A stretch of DNA of 64,000 nucleotides from Ostreococcus lucimarinus (lineage: Eukaryota), in assembly GCA_000092065.1 (NCBI GenBank), contig CP000581.1, one strand, 5' to 3'. A model generated the notes under the pieces. The model saw nothing but the letters and a program-made list of their open reading frames with translations, was not told the origin of the DNA and did no database searches. Both the position numbers and the translations under genes were made by a program. Positions 46,171 to 54,223 of this stretch are shown piece after piece (the stretch's first letter is position 1; the number at the start of each line of letters is the position of its first letter).

Positions 46171-47652
46171 CTACAGTTTACTCAAACCCACTGCAGCGGC
46201 CGGTAGGACCTTGTACGGGTTCATGATCCCGAACGGATCGAGCGCGCGTTTCATCGTCGCCATGAGTTCGACGGCTTTGGCGTCTTTACTATAGTGAATT
46301 TCTTCCGCCTTCATCACCCCTAACCCGTGCTCAGCGCTGACACTTCCCCGTTCATCGCGCGTGTACTCGTACACGAACGGCTCAATCGCACGTTCGATGG
46401 CGTCGTCGTATTCCGCGCACGACACATTCAAATGCAAATTTCCGTCTCCCGCGTGCCCGTATCCGAGCACCTTCACCCGCGATCCGAACATCGGACGTAA
46501 ACGATCGCGCAATACGACGACTAAATTGTACATGCGAGCCGTCGGCAGTGAAAGGTCGTATTTGTACACCGCGCCCGCGTACTTGAGCGCCACCGATATG
46601 CGTTCGCGAAGAGTCCACAACGCGAAGGCGTGCTTCTCGTCTCTACCCACGACGCCATCGACGACGATGCGCTGACTCTTGACGACGTTCAAAAATGCGT
46701 CGAGTTTAGCGGTATCGTGTTTCGCATCGCTACCGCTGGTCTCGATGACGACGTAAAACTCGCACGGCTTCCCGGGTAGAGGGTCTCGCGTGCCGCTGAG
46801 TTGGGCCAAGACCAAGTCCAAACTTTCTCGGTCGAAAAACTCGTACGCGCTCAGAATTTCCCCGAGGAGCCCTCGAGCGAGCTTGAGCATCTCAACGCAC
46901 TTCGCGAACGATTCCAAGCCGAACAAAGCCACGTTTACGCTCCGCGGCGCGCGCGGCGTGGAAATCGCCACCTTTGTCACCACGCCGAGCGTTCCTTCGG
47001 CGCCGATGAAGAGTTGCTTCAAATCGTACCCCGTGTTGTCTTTCCGCAGCGTGCGAACGAGGTCCAGTACATCCCCGTTCGGTAAAACGACCTCCAACCC
47101 GAGCACGCTTCCCCGTAAGCTGCCGTATCGCAACAATCTCAAACCGCCCGCGTTGGTCGACACGCACCCGCCCATTTGACACTTCCCTTTCGCCCCTAAA
47201 TCGAGAGGCACCGTCATCCCTCGCGCGCGCACCGCGCTCTCCAGCTCCTCTAACACCACTCCCGCCTCGCACACCGCGCATCCCGCGTCTTCGTCGATGG
47301 AGACGATATCTCGCATGCGCTCCAGCGACACCACGACTTCGTCTCGCGTCGGCGTCCCGCCGCCCACCAACCCCGTGTTCCCTCCCTGCGGCACCACCGC
47401 GATCCTCCGCGCGTGGCAGTGACGCATGACTTTCGAAACTTCTTCCGTCGTTCGCGGCAGCACCACCACCGCGCTCGCGCCGACGTATTTCCCCATCCAG
47501 TCGACGCTGTACTTTTTCACATCTTCCGCGCGCGTCAACACGCGCGTCGCGTCGCCGCCGAGCGCGTCGACGAACGCGTCCGCGTCGCTCGCGCGCACGA
47601 CACTGAACGGCCACTGTCGCGCGCGCGCGTCGCTCGCGCCGGCGCCGCCCAT
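46171..47652 (-). CDS. FAD-linked oxidase: D-2-hydroxyglutarate dehydrogenase / D-lactate dehydrogenase (cytochrome)-like, mitochondrial type
   Basis: FAD-binding PCMH domain with VVPQGGNTGLVGGGTP. The C-terminal FAD-oxidase domain has the HAGDGNLH motif. Confidence 0.85.
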   Translation of the reverse strand: MGGAGASDARARQWPFSVVRASDADAFVDALGGDATRVLTRAEDVKKYSVDWMGKYVGASAVVVLPRTTEEVSKVMRHCHARRIAVVPQGGNTGLVGGGTPTRDEVVVSLERMRDIVSIDEDAGCAVCEAGVVLEELESAVRARGMTVPLDLGAKGKCQMGGCVSTNAGGLRLLRYGSLRGSVLGLEVVLPNGDVLDLVRTLRKDNTGYDLKQLFIGAEGTLGVVTKVAISTPRAPRSVNVALFGLESFAKCVEMLKLARGLLGEILSAYEFFDRESLDLVLAQLSGTRDPLPGKPCEFYVVIETSGSDAKHDTAKLDAFLNVVKSQRIVVDGVVGRDEKHAFALWTLRERISVALKYAGAVYKYDLSLPTARMYNLVVVLRDRLRPMFGSRVKVLGYGHAGDGNLHLNVSCAEYDDAIERAIEPFVYEYTRDERGSVSAEHGLGVMKAEEIHYSKDAKAVELMATMKRALDPFGIMNPYKVLPAAAVGLSKL

Positions 47653-47672
47653 GGACGCCGACGCGACACTCT

Positions 47673-48677
47673 GTGACGCGACACCCGGTCTGGCCGACGC
47701 CGATGCCGCTCGAACTCGTCGACGCGGACACGCAGGTGGCGGGAAATCACGCGCACGGACGCATGGCGAAACAATCGCCGTGCGGGACGTGGTTTTACAA
47801 GCCCCACGTCGCGGGCGACGCGCGGAGCGCGGTAGAGTTTGCGTTTTACGCCGACGTTTCGAGAGAGGCGAAACTCGACGACGACGACGACGACGACGAC
47901 GCGGTGCCGCGCGAGCGCGTCGATGACGCGGTGCCGACGCCGAAGACGCCTGATGACGCGAACGACGCCGCGCGCGCGCTGCGAGCGTTCGTGTGCGCGC
48001 GGATACCGAGGTGTCCGGCGTCGCGCGCGAGCAAGACGCGAGGACGAAACGAGACGTTCGGGACGAGCGATGGGTTCGGGGATGGGTTAGACGTGGATGG
48101 GTACCTGAGATTGAAGAATTTGACGTTCGGATACGCGCGACCGTGCGTGATCGATCTGAAGATCGGCGTTCGAACGTGGGATGGGAAGCACAGCGCGGAG
48201 TATTTGGAGAAGCGAGCGAAATCAGAGGCGGGGACGACGCACGAGACGCTCGGTTTCAAGGTGTGCGGCGCGCAGACGTACGACGCGAGTGGTGCGCTGC
48301 AAAGGTTGTCGAGGGATGAATGTAAACGCATACGCATGAGCGAGGCGCTGACGAAGGAGACGTTGGAAAATTTCGTGCGCGATCCCGCGACCGGGGAGAG
48401 GAACGCGTGGTTTTGGCCGGCGCTTTTGAAGCAGTTGTTAAGCGAACCGCTCAGAGCCCTGTCGTATCGATTAGTCGGTACATCGTTGCTCGTCGTGTAC
48501 GAAAGTGGGAGCTTGGCGCCGTCAGAAATCGCGGGCGCGGTGTGCGTTCCAGAATCGAAATTGGAGGCTAGGTACATCGACTTTTGCCACGCCGTGCGTA
48601 AATGCGACGGCGAAGACGTGGATCATAATTTCGAGGGTGGGTTGAAACTGTTCCAGAGATTCGTCGAATCGATGTAG
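47673..48677 (+). CDS. Inositol polyphosphate kinase (IPK family; IPMK/IP6K-like)
   Basis: IPK signature motifs: PCVIDLKIGVRTW (PxxxDxKxG), SSLLVVYE (SLL) and IDFCHAV (IDF[AG]H). Confidence 0.8.
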   Translation: MTRHPVWPTPMPLELVDADTQVAGNHAHGRMAKQSPCGTWFYKPHVAGDARSAVEFAFYADVSREAKLDDDDDDDDAVPRERVDDAVPTPKTPDDANDAARALRAFVCARIPRCPASRASKTRGRNETFGTSDGFGDGLDVDGYLRLKNLTFGYARPCVIDLKIGVRTWDGKHSAEYLEKRAKSEAGTTHETLGFKVCGAQTYDASGALQRLSRDECKRIRMSEALTKETLENFVRDPATGERNAWFWPALLKQLLSEPLRALSYRLVGTSLLVVYESGSLAPSEIAGAVCVPESKLEARYIDFCHAVRKCDGEDVDHNFEGGLKLFQRFVESM

Positions 48678-48714
48678 AAGTGCTAGAAACGATTAGCTAG
48701 ACGTAGGTTATGTA

Positions 48715-50844
48715 TCACGGGAGGTCACCGATCGCCTTAAACGCCTCTGACACGCGGATAAACATCCTCGTCGCCGATTTTCGTTCGCTCTCCGCCTTGT
48801 GCGTGTGCTTATCGGGATGCCACAACAGCGCGGCTCGGCGGTACGCCTTGGCTATTTCTTGCTTTGATGCATTCACGGCGACGCCCAGAGTTTTGTAGTG
48901 CTCGACTTGCACGTTACGTTCGCGTTGGATCTCAAAAACTCGCTGCGAGCGCTCGCGTTGGCGCTCGCGCTGCTCGTGTTCAAACCTGGCGCGACTCGCT
49001 TCTCTCTCGCGAGCCCAGTCTTTGCATACGCTGTGATCGGACGCGCGACAACCACATATCGAGCAAAAGCACACGATTTCTGGATTGTTTGCTTCGGTCT
49101 GCGGGAAGACGAGTTTGAATCCGGGGCACTCCGTGCACGTCTGACAGCCGACGCGTTCGGCGCCGGAGACGGCGTCGCATGTCGATTCGCAAACTGTTTC
49201 CTCTCGCTCTAGCGCAATCTGCACGCGCTCACCTAGTAGTCGCACGCGATGGCGTCGAGCGCAAGCTTCATCTTCCTTGCGAGTCTTTTCGATGCGTTCA
49301 AGACGCTCACGCTTGCGAAATTCCTTTTCGTTGCAATGGTTACTCGACTCACATCCACAACGTGCACATCGAGTGCCATCGCGGGCGAGCACCACTGCAT
49401 TGTACAAAGCCGTGTATTCTTCATTGTTCGCGTCGTGATTCGGCAACGGCGCGCGCTTCCATGAAGAAAATTTCGCGAAGGACGTGCACGCTTTGTCGCA
49501 AATCTTGCACGGACCGCGAAGCACACCTTCAGCGTCGGCGTCGCCCATCTCACCGCACGGTTCTTTAACCTTGAACAAATCGGCGAGAGAATCAACCTTT
49601 AACCCTGGCGGCTTGATCATTTTCACTTCCGTCGCTCGCCGTTTCGTCGCACCCGCGAGAACGATCTTCTCTGCGTTACGCTGTTGCTGGCGTGCAAATT
49701 GCTCTTCTTCCCATCTTTCGGCCCAGAGTTCATCTGCATCTTCGACTTCAGCAGCGTCCGTCACGGAGTCGGCGTGTTCGCGCTCGAATGCTTTAAACAT
49801 GTTCATACTATCTGCCATTCGCAGGTCGTCGTCCTGCTCGTCGGTATCTTCGCCGGCGACGACGCGCAATAATCGTGACATTAGCGATGACTCTTCCTCC
49901 TCTTCCTCCTCCTCCTCCTCCTCCTCCTTTTCTCTACGATTGGACATGGGCATAGAAACACCAACTGTGCTCGTCGCCGCATGCTTCATCGATACTTCGC
50001 TATCGACGTTGCGAATCGCGGTTTTTACCGGCCCGAGACGTTCGCACGTCGCCACTTCGACGCGAATGTCGCGCATCACGCGCTCGAGACGCGACAACAG
50101 CGACTTGGCTTCCTCGATCGACTGTTTTATCGTCAAACAGACGGAATCAGTATCCTCAAAGTCAGCAGGCGCGGGCGATGGCGTCGCCGTCGGCGGTCCC
50201 GCCGGTTTCGTTGGCGCCGGTTTCGTCCGCGGCGCGCGCGAGCGTTCGCACGCTTTCAACCCGTCTCGCGCCGTTTGTGACGTCGGGTCGAGCTTCAACG
50301 CGAGTTCGAATGATCTCTTGGCCACATCGGTGTTCCCCATCGCCAACGCCGCCGCGCCCACGCGCGTCCTCGCCTTGGCGTAATGCCCGTCGATGTCCAC
50401 CGCGCGCTCGGCGTCGCTCAGCGCCTGCGAATACTTGCCCATCTTCAAAAAGCACGCGCTACGATTGGAGTAACTCTTCGCATCCCCAGCCCTGCACTCG
50501 ATCGCCCGCGTGTAGTGCCCCACCGCCCGTTCGAACCGACCGTCGTCGAACGCGTCGTTCCCTCTCTCGCGCCAATCCGCGTTCTCGTCCACGGCGTGCT
50601 CCGCGCTCGCGCACCCGCACCTCGAGCAATTCGTCAGCGTCAAATCGTTGTGCGGATGCGCTCGCGTCTCCCCCGCGCTCGACGCGTCTCGCGCGTACTC
50701 ATTCGTGCGTTTCAAGTACCCCCCCGCGCACGCCGCGCCGCACCGCAGGCACTCGCCCCGGCACTTCCCGAACAGGTCCCGCGTCGTCTCGCGATTCGGT
50801 TCCAAGTGCGCCTCCGCGCGTCGTCCCGCGCGCGCGTCCATCAC
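48715..50844 (-). CDS. TPR-repeat DnaJ (J-domain) protein with three CxxCGCxxxxH Cys-rich repeats and a poly-Glu tract
   Basis: C-terminal J domain YKTLGVAVNASKQEIAKAYRRAALLWHPDKH. N-terminal TPRs (WRERGNDAFDDGRFERAVGHYTRAIE...). Three repeats: NCSRCGCASAEH, CARCGCESSNHC and CFCSICGCRASDHS. A (CTC)n tract at about 49891-49929 on + encodes poly-E. Confidence 0.8.
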   Translation of the reverse strand: MMDARAGRRAEAHLEPNRETTRDLFGKCRGECLRCGAACAGGYLKRTNEYARDASSAGETRAHPHNDLTLTNCSRCGCASAEHAVDENADWRERGNDAFDDGRFERAVGHYTRAIECRAGDAKSYSNRSACFLKMGKYSQALSDAERAVDIDGHYAKARTRVGAAALAMGNTDVAKRSFELALKLDPTSQTARDGLKACERSRAPRTKPAPTKPAGPPTATPSPAPADFEDTDSVCLTIKQSIEEAKSLLSRLERVMRDIRVEVATCERLGPVKTAIRNVDSEVSMKHAATSTVGVSMPMSNRREKEEEEEEEEEEEESSLMSRLLRVVAGEDTDEQDDDLRMADSMNMFKAFEREHADSVTDAAEVEDADELWAERWEEEQFARQQQRNAEKIVLAGATKRRATEVKMIKPPGLKVDSLADLFKVKEPCGEMGDADAEGVLRGPCKICDKACTSFAKFSSWKRAPLPNHDANNEEYTALYNAVVLARDGTRCARCGCESSNHCNEKEFRKRERLERIEKTRKEDEACARRHRVRLLGERVQIALEREETVCESTCDAVSGAERVGCQTCTECPGFKLVFPQTEANNPEIVCFCSICGCRASDHSVCKDWAREREASRARFEHEQRERQRERSQRVFEIQRERNVQVEHYKTLGVAVNASKQEIAKAYRRAALLWHPDKHTHKAESERKSATRMFIRVSEAFKAIGDLP

Positions 50845-51229
50845 CGCGCGCCTCGCGCTCGCGCTCGATCGCGTCGGTCGCGTCGATCGCTCGGCTCGCG
50901 TCGATCGCTCGCGTCGCGTCGGTCGCGTCGGTCGCGTCGATCACTCGCGCGGCGTCCATCGCTCGCGAGGCGTTTTCGCCGTTTCTTTCCCATCGCGCGC
51001 GCGGTCGATCGGTCGACGACGTCAGCGTCAGCCCTATCGCGCGCGTCGCGATCGTCGCGCCGCACACGCGCGCGAGCGCGGTGGAAATCTCGGGTCTCGC
51101 GCGTCGACGCGCGCGCGAACGATGCGCGGCGTCGCGGTGGCGCCGACGCGGTGCGCGACGCGCGCGCGCGGCGACGCGACGCGCGGCACGGCGACGCGCG
51201 CGGGACGCGCGACGCGACGGGGACGCGCG

Positions 51230-51820
51230 ATGGCGCGGACGGGCGACGACGAGGCGGCGAACGCGAAGGCGAGCGCGAGCGCGGGGAAGAAGTGCGCGGC
51301 GGTCGTCGCGGGATGCGCGATGGCGCTCGCGATGGCGAGCGCGCGGGTCGCGGTGGCGGATTCGCTGCCGGATGAAGTCGACGTCAAGGTGCTGTGCGAC
51401 GCGGCGTGCGAAAAGCGGTTGGAGAGTCAAGAGTTTAAGACGACGAAGAGCGGGCTGAGGTACAAGGAAATCAAGGAAGGCGACGGGATGGAACCGCCGG
51501 TTGGGTTCCAGGTCGTCGTGGATTACATCGCCATGGATGAAAAGGGACGAATTTTCGATAACAGCTTGGCCAAGGGCAAGCCGAACGATATTCGCGTCGT
51601 CGACTGCGTGGGTTCGGGCGATTTTGATTCCTGCACCGTGATTCCGGGCATGGACGAGGGGCTGCTGACGATGAAGTCTGGTGGTGTTCGTAGGTTGTAC
51701 ATTCCGGGCGAGCTGTCGTTTCCGAAAGGGTTGGCGAGCGCGCCGGGTCGACCAAAGGTGCCGCCGTTTTCGCCAGTCGTCTTCGACGTCAATCTCTTGT
51801 ACATCCCGGGTTTCGATTAG
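51230..51820 (+). CDS. FKBP-type peptidyl-prolyl cis-trans isomerase with an N-terminal targeting or signal region (thylakoid-lumen-type architecture)
   Basis: FKBP domain GLRYKEIKEGDGMEPPVGFQVVVDYIAMDEKGRIFDNS...VIPGMDEGLLTMKSGGVRRLYIPGELSF. The hydrophobic AAVVAGCAMALAMASA precedes it. The ORF-track portion 50648-51229 overlaps the DnaJ gene and is rejected. Confidence 0.85.
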   Translation: MARTGDDEAANAKASASAGKKCAAVVAGCAMALAMASARVAVADSLPDEVDVKVLCDAACEKRLESQEFKTTKSGLRYKEIKEGDGMEPPVGFQVVVDYIAMDEKGRIFDNSLAKGKPNDIRVVDCVGSGDFDSCTVIPGMDEGLLTMKSGGVRRLYIPGELSFPKGLASAPGRPKVPPFSPVVFDVNLLYIPGFD

Positions 51821-51901
51821 GAGGTTTCGCGTCATAATAACAAACATCAAAGTCAACATTACTCTCATATAAATTCGTTCCTATATGAAAAAAGTCGTGC
51901 C

Positions 51902-54223
<2,322 letters not shown>

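What the first reader, a model, noticed from the sequence alone, without database searches (positions are those of the whole stretch)
48715..50844. TPR-DnaJ co-chaperone with a thrice-repeated CxxCGCxxxxH cysteine module
Besides N-terminal TPRs and a C-terminal J domain, which is a DNAJC7-like layout, the protein has three copies of a compact C-x2-C-G-C-x4-5-H motif: CSRCGCASAEH, CARCGCESSNH and CSICGCRASDH. I do not recognise this as a standard zinc finger. It could be a novel metal- or redox-binding module on an Hsp70 co-chaperone.
Basis: seen in the sequence. Interest (0 to 1): 0.5.

Follow-up and report, generated by a model that had tools for sequence, protein, structure and literature searches.

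The report
Algal co-chaperone with three zinc modules
A real, conserved gene of an Ostreococcus-like marine green alga encodes an Hsp70/Hsp90 helper protein with three copies of an unannotated module of six cysteines and one histidine, most likely a two-zinc cluster like the one in the GCN5/PCAF N-terminal domain; this is moderately interesting and needs metal analysis.

Summary
One intron-less gene (48715..50841, minus strand, 708 aa) encodes a TPR domain with EEVD-clamp residues, a C-terminal J domain with an intact HPD motif, and exactly three CxxCGCxxxxH motifs.

Each motif is the second half of a larger module of about 55-75 aa: R-G-x-C-x2-C-x2-3-C-x2-3-[FY] ... C-x2-C-G-C-x4-H. That gives six Cys and one His per module. 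All 21 of these residues are invariant in orthologs down to 27% identity, while most other Cys vary.

A profile of the module finds 116 cluster representatives among 1.8 billion proteins. Named members come from green algae, haptophytes and Symbiodinium. The long hits scanned keep the M1-TPR-M2-M3-J layout. The module also occurs next to a ubiquitin-like domain and next to a glycosyltransferase-like domain.

Pfam, NCBIfam and PDB sequences give no significant match. AlphaFold models module 3 as a compact domain (pLDDT 91). Its top PDB match, which is not significant, is the binuclear Zn2Cys5His2 region of GCN5 PCAF_N. That region has seven ligands in the same order, and the second half has the same spacing.

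Best reading: a DNAJC7-like class C J-protein carrying three undescribed, probably binuclear, zinc modules. Homology to PCAF_N and metal binding are both unproven. Classification: new variant of a known kind.

The parts
48715..50841 (-). Whole coding sequence: 708 aa from the ATG, plus stop codon. Single exon. Cys-module/TPR/J-domain co-chaperone.
   Evidence: The ORF is. A 99% identical protein (P0001) and 16 further full-length orthologs (P0002-P0017), including O. tauri Q01H55, are. The same neighbours (FKBP, IPK, FAD oxidase) flank the gene in L001 and L002.
50596..50775 (-). Cys/His module 1 (res 24-83). Predicted ligands are C32, C35, C39, C73, C76, C78 and H83, with aromatic Y43. It runs directly into the first TPR helix.
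   Evidence: HMM domain of 63.6 bits. All ligands are invariant in the 9-10 orthologs that have an N-terminus.
50275..50583 (-). Three-motif TPR domain (res 88-190) with two-carboxylate-clamp residues R92, N96, N127, K157 and R161.
   Evidence: Pfam TPR_1/TPR_2. The best natural PDB matches are HOP TPR2B/TPR1, RPAP3, PP5, SGTA and CHIP. In the printed alignment to HOP TPR1 these residues pair with K8, N12, N43, K73 and R77. K157 and R161 are invariant; N96 and N127 are at least 90% conserved.
49735..50274 (-). Poorly conserved Pro/acidic linker (res 191-370), including a poly-Glu run.
   Evidence: Mean identity to orthologs is 0.27. The poly-Glu run is a (CTC)n array at 49891-49928.
49696..49725 (-). 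Short conserved motif WAERWEEEQF (res 374-383).
   Evidence: Identity among orthologs is 0.91, inside a linker at 0.27-0.36. It is recognisable in the distant homologs P0128 and P0107.
49336..49530 (-). Cys/His module 2 (res 439-503). Predicted ligands are C446, C449, C453, C493, C496, C498 and H503, with aromatic F456. It has the longest insert between the two halves.
   Evidence: HMM domain of 72.3 bits. All ligands are invariant in 14 orthologs.
49168..49335 (-). Charged linker between modules 2 and 3 (res 504-559); it looks helical from its sequence.
   Evidence: Sequence composition only. Identity to orthologs is 0.43. No fold was predicted for this stretch.
49009..49167 (-). Cys/His module 3 (res 560-612), the most compact copy. 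Predicted ligands are C567, C570, C573, C594, C597, C599 and H604, with aromatic F576 and trailing W610.
   Evidence: HMM domain of 64.2 bits. Ligands are invariant. The AlphaFold2 model has pLDDT 91.1. Its top Foldseek hit is 7by1, the GCN5 PCAF_N domain.
48718..48903 (-). J domain (res 648-709) with HPD at 676-678. It ends right after helix III, so helix IV is absent.
   Evidence: Pfam DnaJ E=8.8e-14, covering profile positions 1-54 of 63. H676, P677 and D678 are invariant, and all orthologs stop within a few residues of the same point. The stop codon is followed 38 bp later by the neighbouring convergent IPK gene.

Best explanation
The gene encodes a cytosolic class C J-domain co-chaperone found in marine algae.

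Proposed mechanism:
- The three-motif TPR domain carries the two-carboxylate clamp that, in HOP, CHIP, PP5 and DNAJC7, grips the C-terminal EEVD tail of cytosolic Hsp70 or Hsp90.
- The C-terminal J domain, with an intact HPD, triggers ATP hydrolysis in Hsp70.
- The three repeated Cys/His modules are small, independently folding metal-stabilised domains. Each most likely holds two Zn(II) ions through six Cys and one His, with one bridging thiolate (Zn2Cys6His). This is the arrangement seen, as Zn2Cys5His2, in the Zn region of the GCN5/PCAF PCAF_N domain.
- The modules would give the co-chaperone rigid surfaces for choosing a client or partner.

What is shown: the domain composition, the clamp and HPD residues, the strict conservation of 7 residues per module, a confident compact fold, and the spread of the module as a mobile domain.

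What is inferred: zinc as the metal, the binuclear geometry, cytosolic location, EEVD binding, and the interaction role.
For: - Pfam finds TPR and DnaJ.
- The clamp residues align with HOP K8/N12/N43/K73/R77. The nearest solved TPRs are all EEVD binders.
- The HPD motif is invariant.
- All 21 proposed ligands are 100% conserved in 9-14 orthologs at 27-55% identity. Of the 13 other Cys, only C131 is invariant.
- Across the three copies and the orthologs, R, 6 Cys, G and H are the only invariant columns.
- The module profile finds 116 representatives at E<=1e-3, 36 of them at E<=1e-10, among 1.84 billion proteins. The long hits have the same M1-TPR-M2-M3-J order.
- The module also sits in unrelated architectures, so it behaves as an autonomous domain: an Emiliania UBL protein, a Symbiodinium GT2-like protein, and a protein with a bacterial-type SH3 (SH3_3) domain.
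- Of 177 unique module copies, 167 have CxxCGCxxxxH. The spacing of the first half varies (x1-x6), which structural Zn sites tolerate.
- AlphaFold2 with a 101-sequence alignment gives pLDDT 91.1.
- The top Foldseek hit among 350,542 PDB chains is 7by1, GCN5 PCAF_N (28-30% identity over 42-43 columns). Rubredoxins follow.
- The PCAF_N Zn region binds two Zn through C107, C113, C115, C142, C145 (bridging), H147 and a final His, with conserved W118 (PMC8586995). From the 7by1 sequence, the pattern is C-x5-C-x-C-x2-W...C-x2-C-x-H-x4-H.
- A global hhalign puts all seven ligands and the aromatic residue in register.
- Two family members (P0189, P0210) carry exactly C-x4-C-x-C-x2-Y...C-x2-C-G-H-x4-H, the Cys5His2 version. 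Seven more have the C-x4-C-x-C first half.
- In HypB, a CxxCGC motif chelates one Ni(II) or Zn(II) through its three thiolates, which shows the triad is a competent metal site (PMC12284835).
Against: - No metal has been measured.
- hhalign gives only P=0.029 in local mode and a probability below 2%.
- An HMM of the PCAF_N Zn region scores the modules no better than shuffled sequences.
- phmmer with the most PCAF_N-like module does not retrieve 7by1.
- The model coordinates could not be inspected, so Cys-Cys distances were not checked.
- The first half resembles a ferredoxin CxxCxxC motif, and a few modules give weak Fer4 hits (E 0.02-0.18).
- The J domain lacks helix IV, so its potency is uncertain.
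Confidence: 0.6

Rival explanations
1. The modules are ordinary one-zinc ribbons. The two CxxC knuckles bind a single Zn as Cys4. The extra invariant Cys, Cys and His are free or weakly bound, and act as a redox or oxidative-stress switch on the co-chaperone, as with the zinc centre of Hsp33 or the fingers of DnaJ.
For: After 7by1, the Foldseek hits are rubredoxins and rubrerythrin, which are Cys4 knuckle pairs. Nine of 101 modules give weak TFIIB zinc-ribbon hits. Redox-sensitive zinc centres in chaperones are established knowledge rather than something tested here.
Against: Seven residues, not four, are invariant over the whole family. The sixth position is Cys in 174 of 177 copies, His in two and Tyr in one, which is how a metal ligand behaves. 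The seven-ligand pattern matches a solved binuclear site.
Confidence: 0.15
2. The modules are PCAF_N-type atypical ubiquitin-ligase elements. The protein would then be a chaperone-coupled E3: a CHIP-like TPR clamp plus a J domain that hands Hsp70/Hsp90 clients to an E2.
For: [quoted passage not shown] The ligand pattern and the top structural hit point to that region. The same module is fused to ubiquitin-like domains in haptophyte proteins: P0184 hits Pfam ubiquitin at E=0.0024, and its Emiliania cluster member is named 'Ubiquitin-like domain-containing protein' in UniRef. CHIP is among the TPR matches.
Against: Homology to PCAF_N is not established. The rest of PCAF_N, namely the coiled coil and the MSL3-like domain, is absent. 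The review itself says it is unknown whether the Zn region alone is an E3, and notes that a similar cluster in RAG1 lies outside the ligase region. The ubiquitin Pfam hit is below threshold.
Confidence: 0.12
3. The modules bind iron-sulfur clusters and make the J-protein redox-active.
For: The first half of module 3 is C-x2-C-x2-C-P, which looks ferredoxin-like. Fer4_2 and Fer4_10 give weak hits for 4 and 2 of 101 modules, at best E of 0.18 and 0.02. J-proteins with Fe-S domains exist in Chlamydomonas chloroplasts (CDJ3-5); this is from my own knowledge and was not checked here.
Against: The spacing of the first three Cys varies from x1 to x6 across the family, and even among the three copies in this one protein. 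Cubane-binding motifs do not tolerate this. There is no Pfam hit at a meaningful E-value. No transit peptide is evident, because module 1 starts at residue 24 and the leader is conserved. The final ligand is His.
Confidence: 0.08
4. The CxxCGC triads are HypB-like high-affinity nickel (or other soft-metal) sites, and the protein is a metal-handling chaperone.
For: The CxxCGC motif of HypB binds Ni(II) with picomolar affinity through its three thiolates, and it also binds Zn(II) (PMC12284835).
Against: The HypB site needs the free N-terminal amine as its fourth ligand. Here the motif is internal, is always followed by an invariant His, and is always paired with three more Cys. There is no other similarity to HypB.
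Confidence: 0.03

Closest known systems
DNAJC7 / TPR2 (and DNAJC3), the 'DnaJ-TPR' class C J-proteins of eukaryotes
   Same: Clamp-type TPR repeats lie N-terminal and a J domain with HPD lies at the C-terminus. DnaJ-TPR is a recognised, eukaryote-only architecture (PMC10410713). The expected logic is the same: dock on EEVD tails and fire the Hsp70 ATPase.
   Different: There are only three TPR motifs, or two triplets in the larger algal relatives, against nine in DNAJC7. The TPR is closest to HOP and RPAP3, not DNAJC7. Three Cys/His modules and a long acidic linker are inserted. The J domain lacks helix IV. Full-length homologs were found only among algae.
[quoted passage not shown]
   Same: Both have seven ligands in the same order (3 + 4). 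The second half has identical spacing, C-x2-C-x-[C/H]-x4-H. Both have an aromatic residue three positions after the third Cys, preceded by Gly (C-N-G-W against C-P-G-F), and a helix follows the last His. It is the top Foldseek hit. Some family members carry the exact Cys5His2 signature.
   Different: The sixth ligand is Cys instead of His in 174 of 177 modules. The first-half spacing is usually C-x2-C-x2-4-C rather than C-x4/5-C-x-C. There is no significant sequence similarity. The coiled-coil and MSL3-like parts of PCAF_N are missing. The module is repeated three times and attached to a chaperone cofactor instead of an acetyltransferase.
Zinc binuclear cluster of the RAG1 dimerisation domain
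   Same: It is cited as the other known Zn2Cys5His2 cluster with a shared thiolate (PMC8586995).
   Different: It was not compared here. It did not appear among the Foldseek hits.
HOP/STI1, RPAP3, PP5, SGTA and CHIP TPR clamp domains
   Same: These are the best solved-structure matches of residues 84-202 (E down to 1e-37 for whole HOP, summed over its TPR domains). The clamp residues are conserved.
   Different: Those proteins pair the clamp with DP, phosphatase, U-box or other domains. None has this module or a J domain.
HypB N-terminal CxxCGC nickel site
   Same: The six-residue motif is identical. It proves that the three thiolates can chelate one metal ion.
   Different: HypB uses the N-terminal amine and square-planar Ni(II) in a disordered tail. 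Here the motif is internal, within a folded seven-ligand domain.
Class A DnaJ zinc-finger-like region (CxxCxGxG x4) and the DNAJC24/DPH4 CSL finger
   Same: These are cysteine-rich zinc modules inside J-proteins that help client handling (PMC10410713).
   Different: The motif is different and there is no profile match. Those are mononuclear Cys4 sites.

Membership tests
J-domain protein, class C with TPR (DnaJ-TPR architecture) | J domain with a conserved HPD tripeptide | tested here: met
   Pfam DnaJ E=8.8e-14 at res 648-706. H676, P677 and D678 are invariant in 16 sequences.
J-domain protein, class C with TPR (DnaJ-TPR architecture) | TPR repeats in the same polypeptide | tested here: met
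   TPR_1 and TPR_2 are above Pfam thresholds, with three motifs at res 88-190.
J-domain protein, class C with TPR (DnaJ-TPR architecture) | Complete four-helix J domain | tested here: not met
   The match covers profile positions 1-54 of 63. The protein and all orthologs end just after helix III.
DNAJC7 orthologs | Nine TPR motifs forming several clamp domains, and closest similarity to DNAJC7 | tested here: not met
   There are only three motifs. Beyond the algal family, database hits are HOP/STI1 proteins. The nearest PDB TPRs are HOP and RPAP3; DNAJC3 appears only at 5.5e-15.
EEVD-binding (two-carboxylate clamp) TPR domains | Clamp residues equivalent to HOP TPR1 K8, N12, N43, K73 and R77 | tested here: met
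   R92, N96, N127, K157 and R161 pair with them in the printed alignment to HOP. They are conserved in orthologs. Which residues form the clamp is established knowledge (Scheufler et al. 2000), not something tested here.
EEVD-binding (two-carboxylate clamp) TPR domains | Binding of the Hsp70/Hsp90 C-terminal peptide | not testable with these tools
   This needs ITC or pull-down with Ostreococcus Hsp70/Hsp90 tails.
PCAF_N (PF06466) Zn region | Significant sequence match to the family profile | tested here: not met
   There is no PF06466 hit on the protein at E<=10. One of 101 modules hits at E=0.14. My own Zn-region HMM scores the modules no better than shuffles. hhalign gives P=0.029.
PCAF_N (PF06466) Zn region | Seven Zn ligands, C,C,C...C,C,H,H, spaced C-x4/5-C-x-C-x2-W ... 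C-x2-C-x-H-x4-H | tested here: inconclusive
   The number, order, second-half spacing and aromatic position are the same. The sixth ligand is Cys, and the first-half spacing differs in this protein. The exact signature occurs in the relatives P0189 and P0210.
PCAF_N (PF06466) Zn region | Same three-dimensional fold | tested here: inconclusive
PCAF_N (PF06466) Zn region | Followed by a connecting coiled coil and an MSL3-like helical domain | tested here: not met
   No such domain is detected. The modules are followed by TPR, a charged linker or the J domain.
PCAF_N (PF06466) Zn region | Binds two Zn ions; needed for E3 ligase activity | not testable with these tools
   This requires metal analysis and ubiquitination assays.
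CSL/DPH-type, B-box and DnaJ CxxCxGxG zinc fingers | Match to the family profile | tested here: not met
   None is listed among Pfam hits at E<=10 for the protein. None is among the 25 families that most of the 101 modules hit at E<=1.
4Fe-4S ferredoxin-type domains | Fixed CxxCxxCxxxCP spacing and a profile match | tested here: not met
   The spacing varies from x1 to x6. Only weak Fer4 hits occur (E>=0.02) in 6 of 101 modules.
HypB-type CxxCGC nickel site | CxxCGC at the extreme N-terminus, using the free amine as fourth ligand | tested here: not met
   The motif is present but internal, at res 73, 493 and 594. The requirement is described in PMC12284835.

The most novel reading that the evidence does not exclude
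The module is an ancient, free-standing version of the PCAF_N binuclear zinc element and has the same activity, recruiting a ubiquitin-conjugating enzyme. This algal family would then be a new kind of chaperone-linked ubiquitin ligase that unites, in one chain, a CHIP-like EEVD clamp, a J domain that loads Hsp70, and three E3 modules. It would also show that the 'metazoan-specific' GCN5 Zn region derives from a mobile domain widespread in marine protists, where it is also fused to ubiquitin-like and glycosyltransferase domains.
Probability: 0.12. Interest if true: 0.75.

Novelty: new variant of a known kind. Interest (0 to 1): 0.45.

Why it matters
TPR/J-domain co-chaperones decide which proteins Hsp70 and Hsp90 fold, recycle or discard. 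What selects their clients is poorly understood. This family, found in ecologically dominant marine picoalgae, carries three copies of a strictly conserved Cys/His domain that no curated profile library searched here (Pfam, NCBIfam) describes.

If the domain is a binuclear zinc cluster of the PCAF_N type, two things follow:
- It gives that so-far isolated, atypical zinc site a wider family and an evolutionary origin.
- It suggests a testable link between chaperone cycling and ubiquitination or metal/redox status in algae.

At the least, it defines a new domain family of about 55 residues that can be added to the domain databases. That would improve the annotation of proteins now labelled 'tetratricopeptide repeat' or 'stress-induced phosphoprotein 1'.

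Tried and rejected
- **Profile libraries.** Pfam and NCBIfam on the whole protein at E<=10 found only TPR and DnaJ. Pfam on 101 individual modules gave no consistent family. The most frequent was the TFIIB zinc ribbon (9 of 101, best E=0.013).
- **PDB by sequence.** Two module profiles gave only chance hits: a thyroid receptor finger at E=3.8 and eL42 at E=0.31. phmmer with the most PCAF_N-like module did not find 7by1.
- **Word-indexed homolog search with the module alignment.** It scored only 207 candidates and returned two short proteins. This was largely a wasted search.
- **Homology to PCAF_N.** hhalign against one sequence and against an 11-sequence Zn-region alignment was weak: P=0.21 and P=0.029. 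HMMER with that Zn-region HMM was indistinguishable from shuffled controls. The homolog search seeded with the mouse GCN5 Zn region listed only PF06466-annotated, mostly fragmentary proteins, so no bridging sequences were obtained.
- **Rejected: chance motif.** 7e-5 motifs are expected by chance and 3 are seen.
- **Rejected: recent internal duplication.** The three copies are only 25-34% identical to each other, and each copy type is conserved across green algae and haptophytes.
- **Rejected: spurious ORF.** Orthologs and synteny support the gene.
- **Rejected: chloroplast Fe-S J-protein.** There is no transit peptide, and the Cys spacing varies.
- **Weak SAND_ULT1 hit.** It covers module 2 of one relative (P0132, E=2e-4, below threshold). 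It was not reproduced in other modules and was set aside.
Full report
**Numbering.** Residues are counted on the 709-codon ORF that starts at the GTG at 50844, as in the finding. The probable start is the ATG one codon later (50839-50841), which gives 708 aa.

**1.

The ORF listing shows a 709-codon ORF at 48715..50844 on the minus strand. A regex scan finds exactly three matches to C-x2-C-G-C-x4-H:
- CSRCGCASAEH, res 73-83, window 50596-50628
- CARCGCESSNH, res 493-503, window 49336-49368
- CSICGCRASDH, res 594-604, window 49033-49065

The motif occurs in no other frame of the 64-kb window. From the protein's own composition, 7e-5 such motifs are expected. Pfam confirms three TPR motifs (res 88-190) and a C-terminal DnaJ domain (res 648-706).

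**2. The gene is real and belongs to an Ostreococcus-like alga**

- A 99% identical protein and sixteen further full-length orthologs (P0002-P0017) at 38-53% identity exist in public data.
- One ortholog cluster contains O. tauri Q01H55, named 'Tetratricopeptide repeat'.
- Contigs carrying the 99% and the 47% orthologs have the same neighbours: Methyltransf_28, a split Peptidase_M24 gene, FKBP, this gene, IPK and an FAD oxidase. These are therefore true orthologs.
- The gene has a single exon. Its stop lies 38 bp from the convergent IPK gene.

**3. The motif is half of a larger module**

Each motif lies 19-39 residues downstream of C-x2-C-x2-3-C-x2-3-[FY] and a conserved Arg. The three first halves are:

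| Module | First three Cys | Aromatic |
|---|---|---|
| 1 | C32, C35, C39 | Y43 |
| 2 | C446, C449, C453 | F456 |
| 3 | C567, C570, C573 | F576 |

I aligned the three copies from all orthologs. The only invariant columns are R, six Cys, the Gly of CGC, and the His. In the ortholog alignment all 21 proposed ligands are 100% conserved. Of the 13 remaining Cys, only C131 in the TPR is invariant. The linkers are 23-43% identical.

**4. The module is a widespread, unannotated domain**

- A profile of the module, searched with full HMMER against 1.84 billion cluster representatives, found 116 proteins at E<=1e-3 and 36 at E<=1e-10.
- The long hits tested have the same order, module 1 - TPR - module 2 - module 3 - J. 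Some have two TPR triplets.
- Named members come from Ostreococcus, a pedinophyte, Prasinoderma coloniale and the haptophyte Diacronema lutheri.
- The module also occurs in other architectures:
  - at the C-terminus of Emiliania/Gephyrocapsa proteins with a ubiquitin-like domain;
  - at the N-terminus of Symbiodinium glycosyltransferase-2-like proteins;
  - twice in a protein with a bacterial-type SH3 (SH3_3) domain.
- Of 177 unique copies, 167 have CxxCGCxxxxH, 7 lack the Gly, 2 have His and 1 has Tyr at the sixth ligand position. The spacing in the first half varies.
- There is no significant or consistent match in Pfam or NCBIfam, and none among PDB sequences.

**5. Fold and closest known structure**

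With 22 sequences, AlphaFold2 gave pLDDT 72. With 101 diverse module sequences, it gave pLDDT 91 for module 3, a compact domain with two short strands and two short helices.

The review of that structure describes a 'Zn region' that sequence analysis had not predicted. It holds a binuclear Zn2Cys5His2 cluster liganded by C107, C113, C115, C142, C145 (bridging), H147 and a last His, with a conserved W118. A similar cluster is known in RAG1 (PMC8586995).

Reading the 7by1 sequence gives the pattern C-x5-C-x-C-x2-W-x23-C-x2-C-x-H-x4-H. By my count the last ligand is H152, not the H151 printed in the review.

The algal module is C-x2-C-x2-4-C-x2-[FY]-x(n)-C-x2-C-x-C-x4-H. Compared with the PCAF_N Zn region:
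- It has seven ligands in the same order.
- Its second half has identical spacing.
- The aromatic residue is at the same offset, after a Gly.
- A global hhalign puts all of these in register.
- Nine modules have the C-x4-C-x-C first half that the review describes as the Pfam consensus.
- P0189 and P0210 carry the full Cys5His2 signature.

Seven ligands for two tetrahedral ions require one bridging thiolate. That is what the solved structure shows.

**6. Limits of that link**

Homology is not demonstrated:
- hhalign reaches only P=0.029.
- An HMM of the Zn region, built from a narrow set of 11 PCAF_N sequences, scores the modules no better than shuffled controls.
- phmmer with the most PCAF_N-like module does not find 7by1.
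- The coiled-coil and MSL3-like parts of PCAF_N are absent.

I therefore say the module works like the PCAF_N Zn region. I do not file it under PF06466.

**7. The chaperone parts**

The TPR domain's nearest natural solved relatives are HOP TPR2B and TPR1, RPAP3, PP5, SGTA and CHIP, which are EEVD binders. In the printed alignment to HOP TPR1, residues R92, N96, N127, K157 and R161 pair with the clamp residues K8, N12, N43, K73 and R77. K157 and R161 are invariant, and N96 and N127 are nearly so.

The J domain keeps an invariant HPD. It stops after helix III in every ortholog, at Pfam profile position 54 of 63.

DnaJ-TPR is a known eukaryotic class C architecture, as in DNAJC3 and DNAJC7 (PMC10410713). 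Here there are three TPR motifs rather than nine, and the TPR is closest to HOP.

**8. Most likely mechanism**

- Shown: the domains, the clamp and HPD residues, and seven invariant residues per module in a confidently folded, mobile domain.
- Inferred: the protein is cytosolic, since it has no transit peptide and an EEVD-type clamp. It docks on Hsp70/Hsp90 tails, fires the Hsp70 ATPase, and uses three Zn2Cys6His modules as rigid partner- or client-binding surfaces.
- Confidence is about 0.6 for the whole statement. It is higher (about 0.9) for the co-chaperone part and lower (about 0.6-0.65) for the binuclear zinc part.

**9. Rivals**

| Rival | Confidence | Key points |
|---|---|---|
| One-zinc ribbon plus redox-active extra Cys | 0.15 | Rubredoxin and TFIIB-ribbon echoes |
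| PCAF_N-like E3 ligase function | 0.12 | Supported by fusions to ubiquitin-like domains; weakened by unproven homology |
| Fe-S cluster | 0.08 | Weak Fer4 hits, but the Cys spacing varies |
| HypB-like nickel site | 0.03 | Identical CxxCGC triad, but HypB needs the N-terminal amine (PMC12284835) |

**10. Verdict**

It is a new variant of a known kind: a TPR/J co-chaperone carrying an undescribed domain family that probably forms an unusual binuclear zinc cluster. It is not categorically new. Interest is 0.45. The decisive experiments are metal analysis and a structure of one module.

Noticed in passing
window 50852-50967: An imperfect tandem array with a 9/18-bp period (consensus TCGCGTCGG, about 9 copies; TRF score 100-174) lies directly upstream of the start codon. 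It sits in the short divergent intergenic region shared with the FKBP gene.
   Followed up: no
window 49891-49928: A (CTC)n array encodes the poly-Glu run (about res 306-318). Its length and composition differ from the 99% identical metagenomic protein P0001 (EEEEEE-EEEEEE against EEEE-EEEGEE), so the tract is polymorphic.
   Followed up: partly
window 49696-49725 (res 374-383): The short motif WAERWEEEQF is 91% conserved among orthologs, inside a linker that is otherwise 27-36% identical. It is still recognisable in distant relatives (P0128 'WAEAWEAEQW', P0107 'WAAAWEEEQY'). It may be a binding peptide; its function is unknown.
   Followed up: partly
window 48718-48903: The J domain ends right after helix III in this protein and in every ortholog (Pfam profile positions 1-54 of 63). 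The family therefore has a naturally helix-IV-less J domain with an intact HPD.
   Followed up: partly
P0184/P0201/P0207/P0212 (Emiliania huxleyi A0A0D3J247 cluster); P0199 (Symbiodinium A0A1Q9CFY9); P0186; P0205: The same Cys6His module occurs outside the co-chaperone family: at the extreme C-terminus of haptophyte proteins with a USP14-like ubiquitin-like domain, at the N-terminus of dinoflagellate glycosyltransferase-2-like proteins, twice in a small protein that looks UBL-like by eye (no Pfam support), and twice in a protein with a bacterial-type SH3 (SH3_3) domain.
   Followed up: partly
P0132 res 428-492 (module 2 of a distant relative): A sub-threshold Pfam hit to the ULTRAPETALA1 SAND domain (PF23292, E=2e-4, 22.1 bits against a cut-off of 25) covers the second half of module 2. 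It is not among the 25 most-matched families for the other modules.
   Followed up: partly
window 51902-53567 (-): The neighbouring methionine-aminopeptidase-2-like gene (Peptidase_M24 by synteny) is split into two ORFs, 52179..53567 and 51902..52192. The non-coding stretch between them looks like an intron and contains a short CTCGCT-type repeat. Gene callers on related contigs also call the last 96 aa separately.
   Followed up: partly
window about 46171-53567; L001; L002: Gene order is conserved between the window and two related metagenomic contigs whose TPR/J proteins are 99% and 47% identical: Methyltransf_28, MetAP2, FKBP, TPR/J gene, IPK, FAD-linked oxidase. The co-chaperone therefore evolves fast within a stable neighbourhood.
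   Followed up: partly
PDB 7by1 sequence against review PMC8586995: The review lists the last Zn ligand of mouse GCN5 as His151. Counting from C142 and E140 in the deposited sequence (CRSCEHPLADH) puts that His at 152, giving C-x2-C-x-H-x4-H. The original JBC paper was not available to check.
   Followed up: partly
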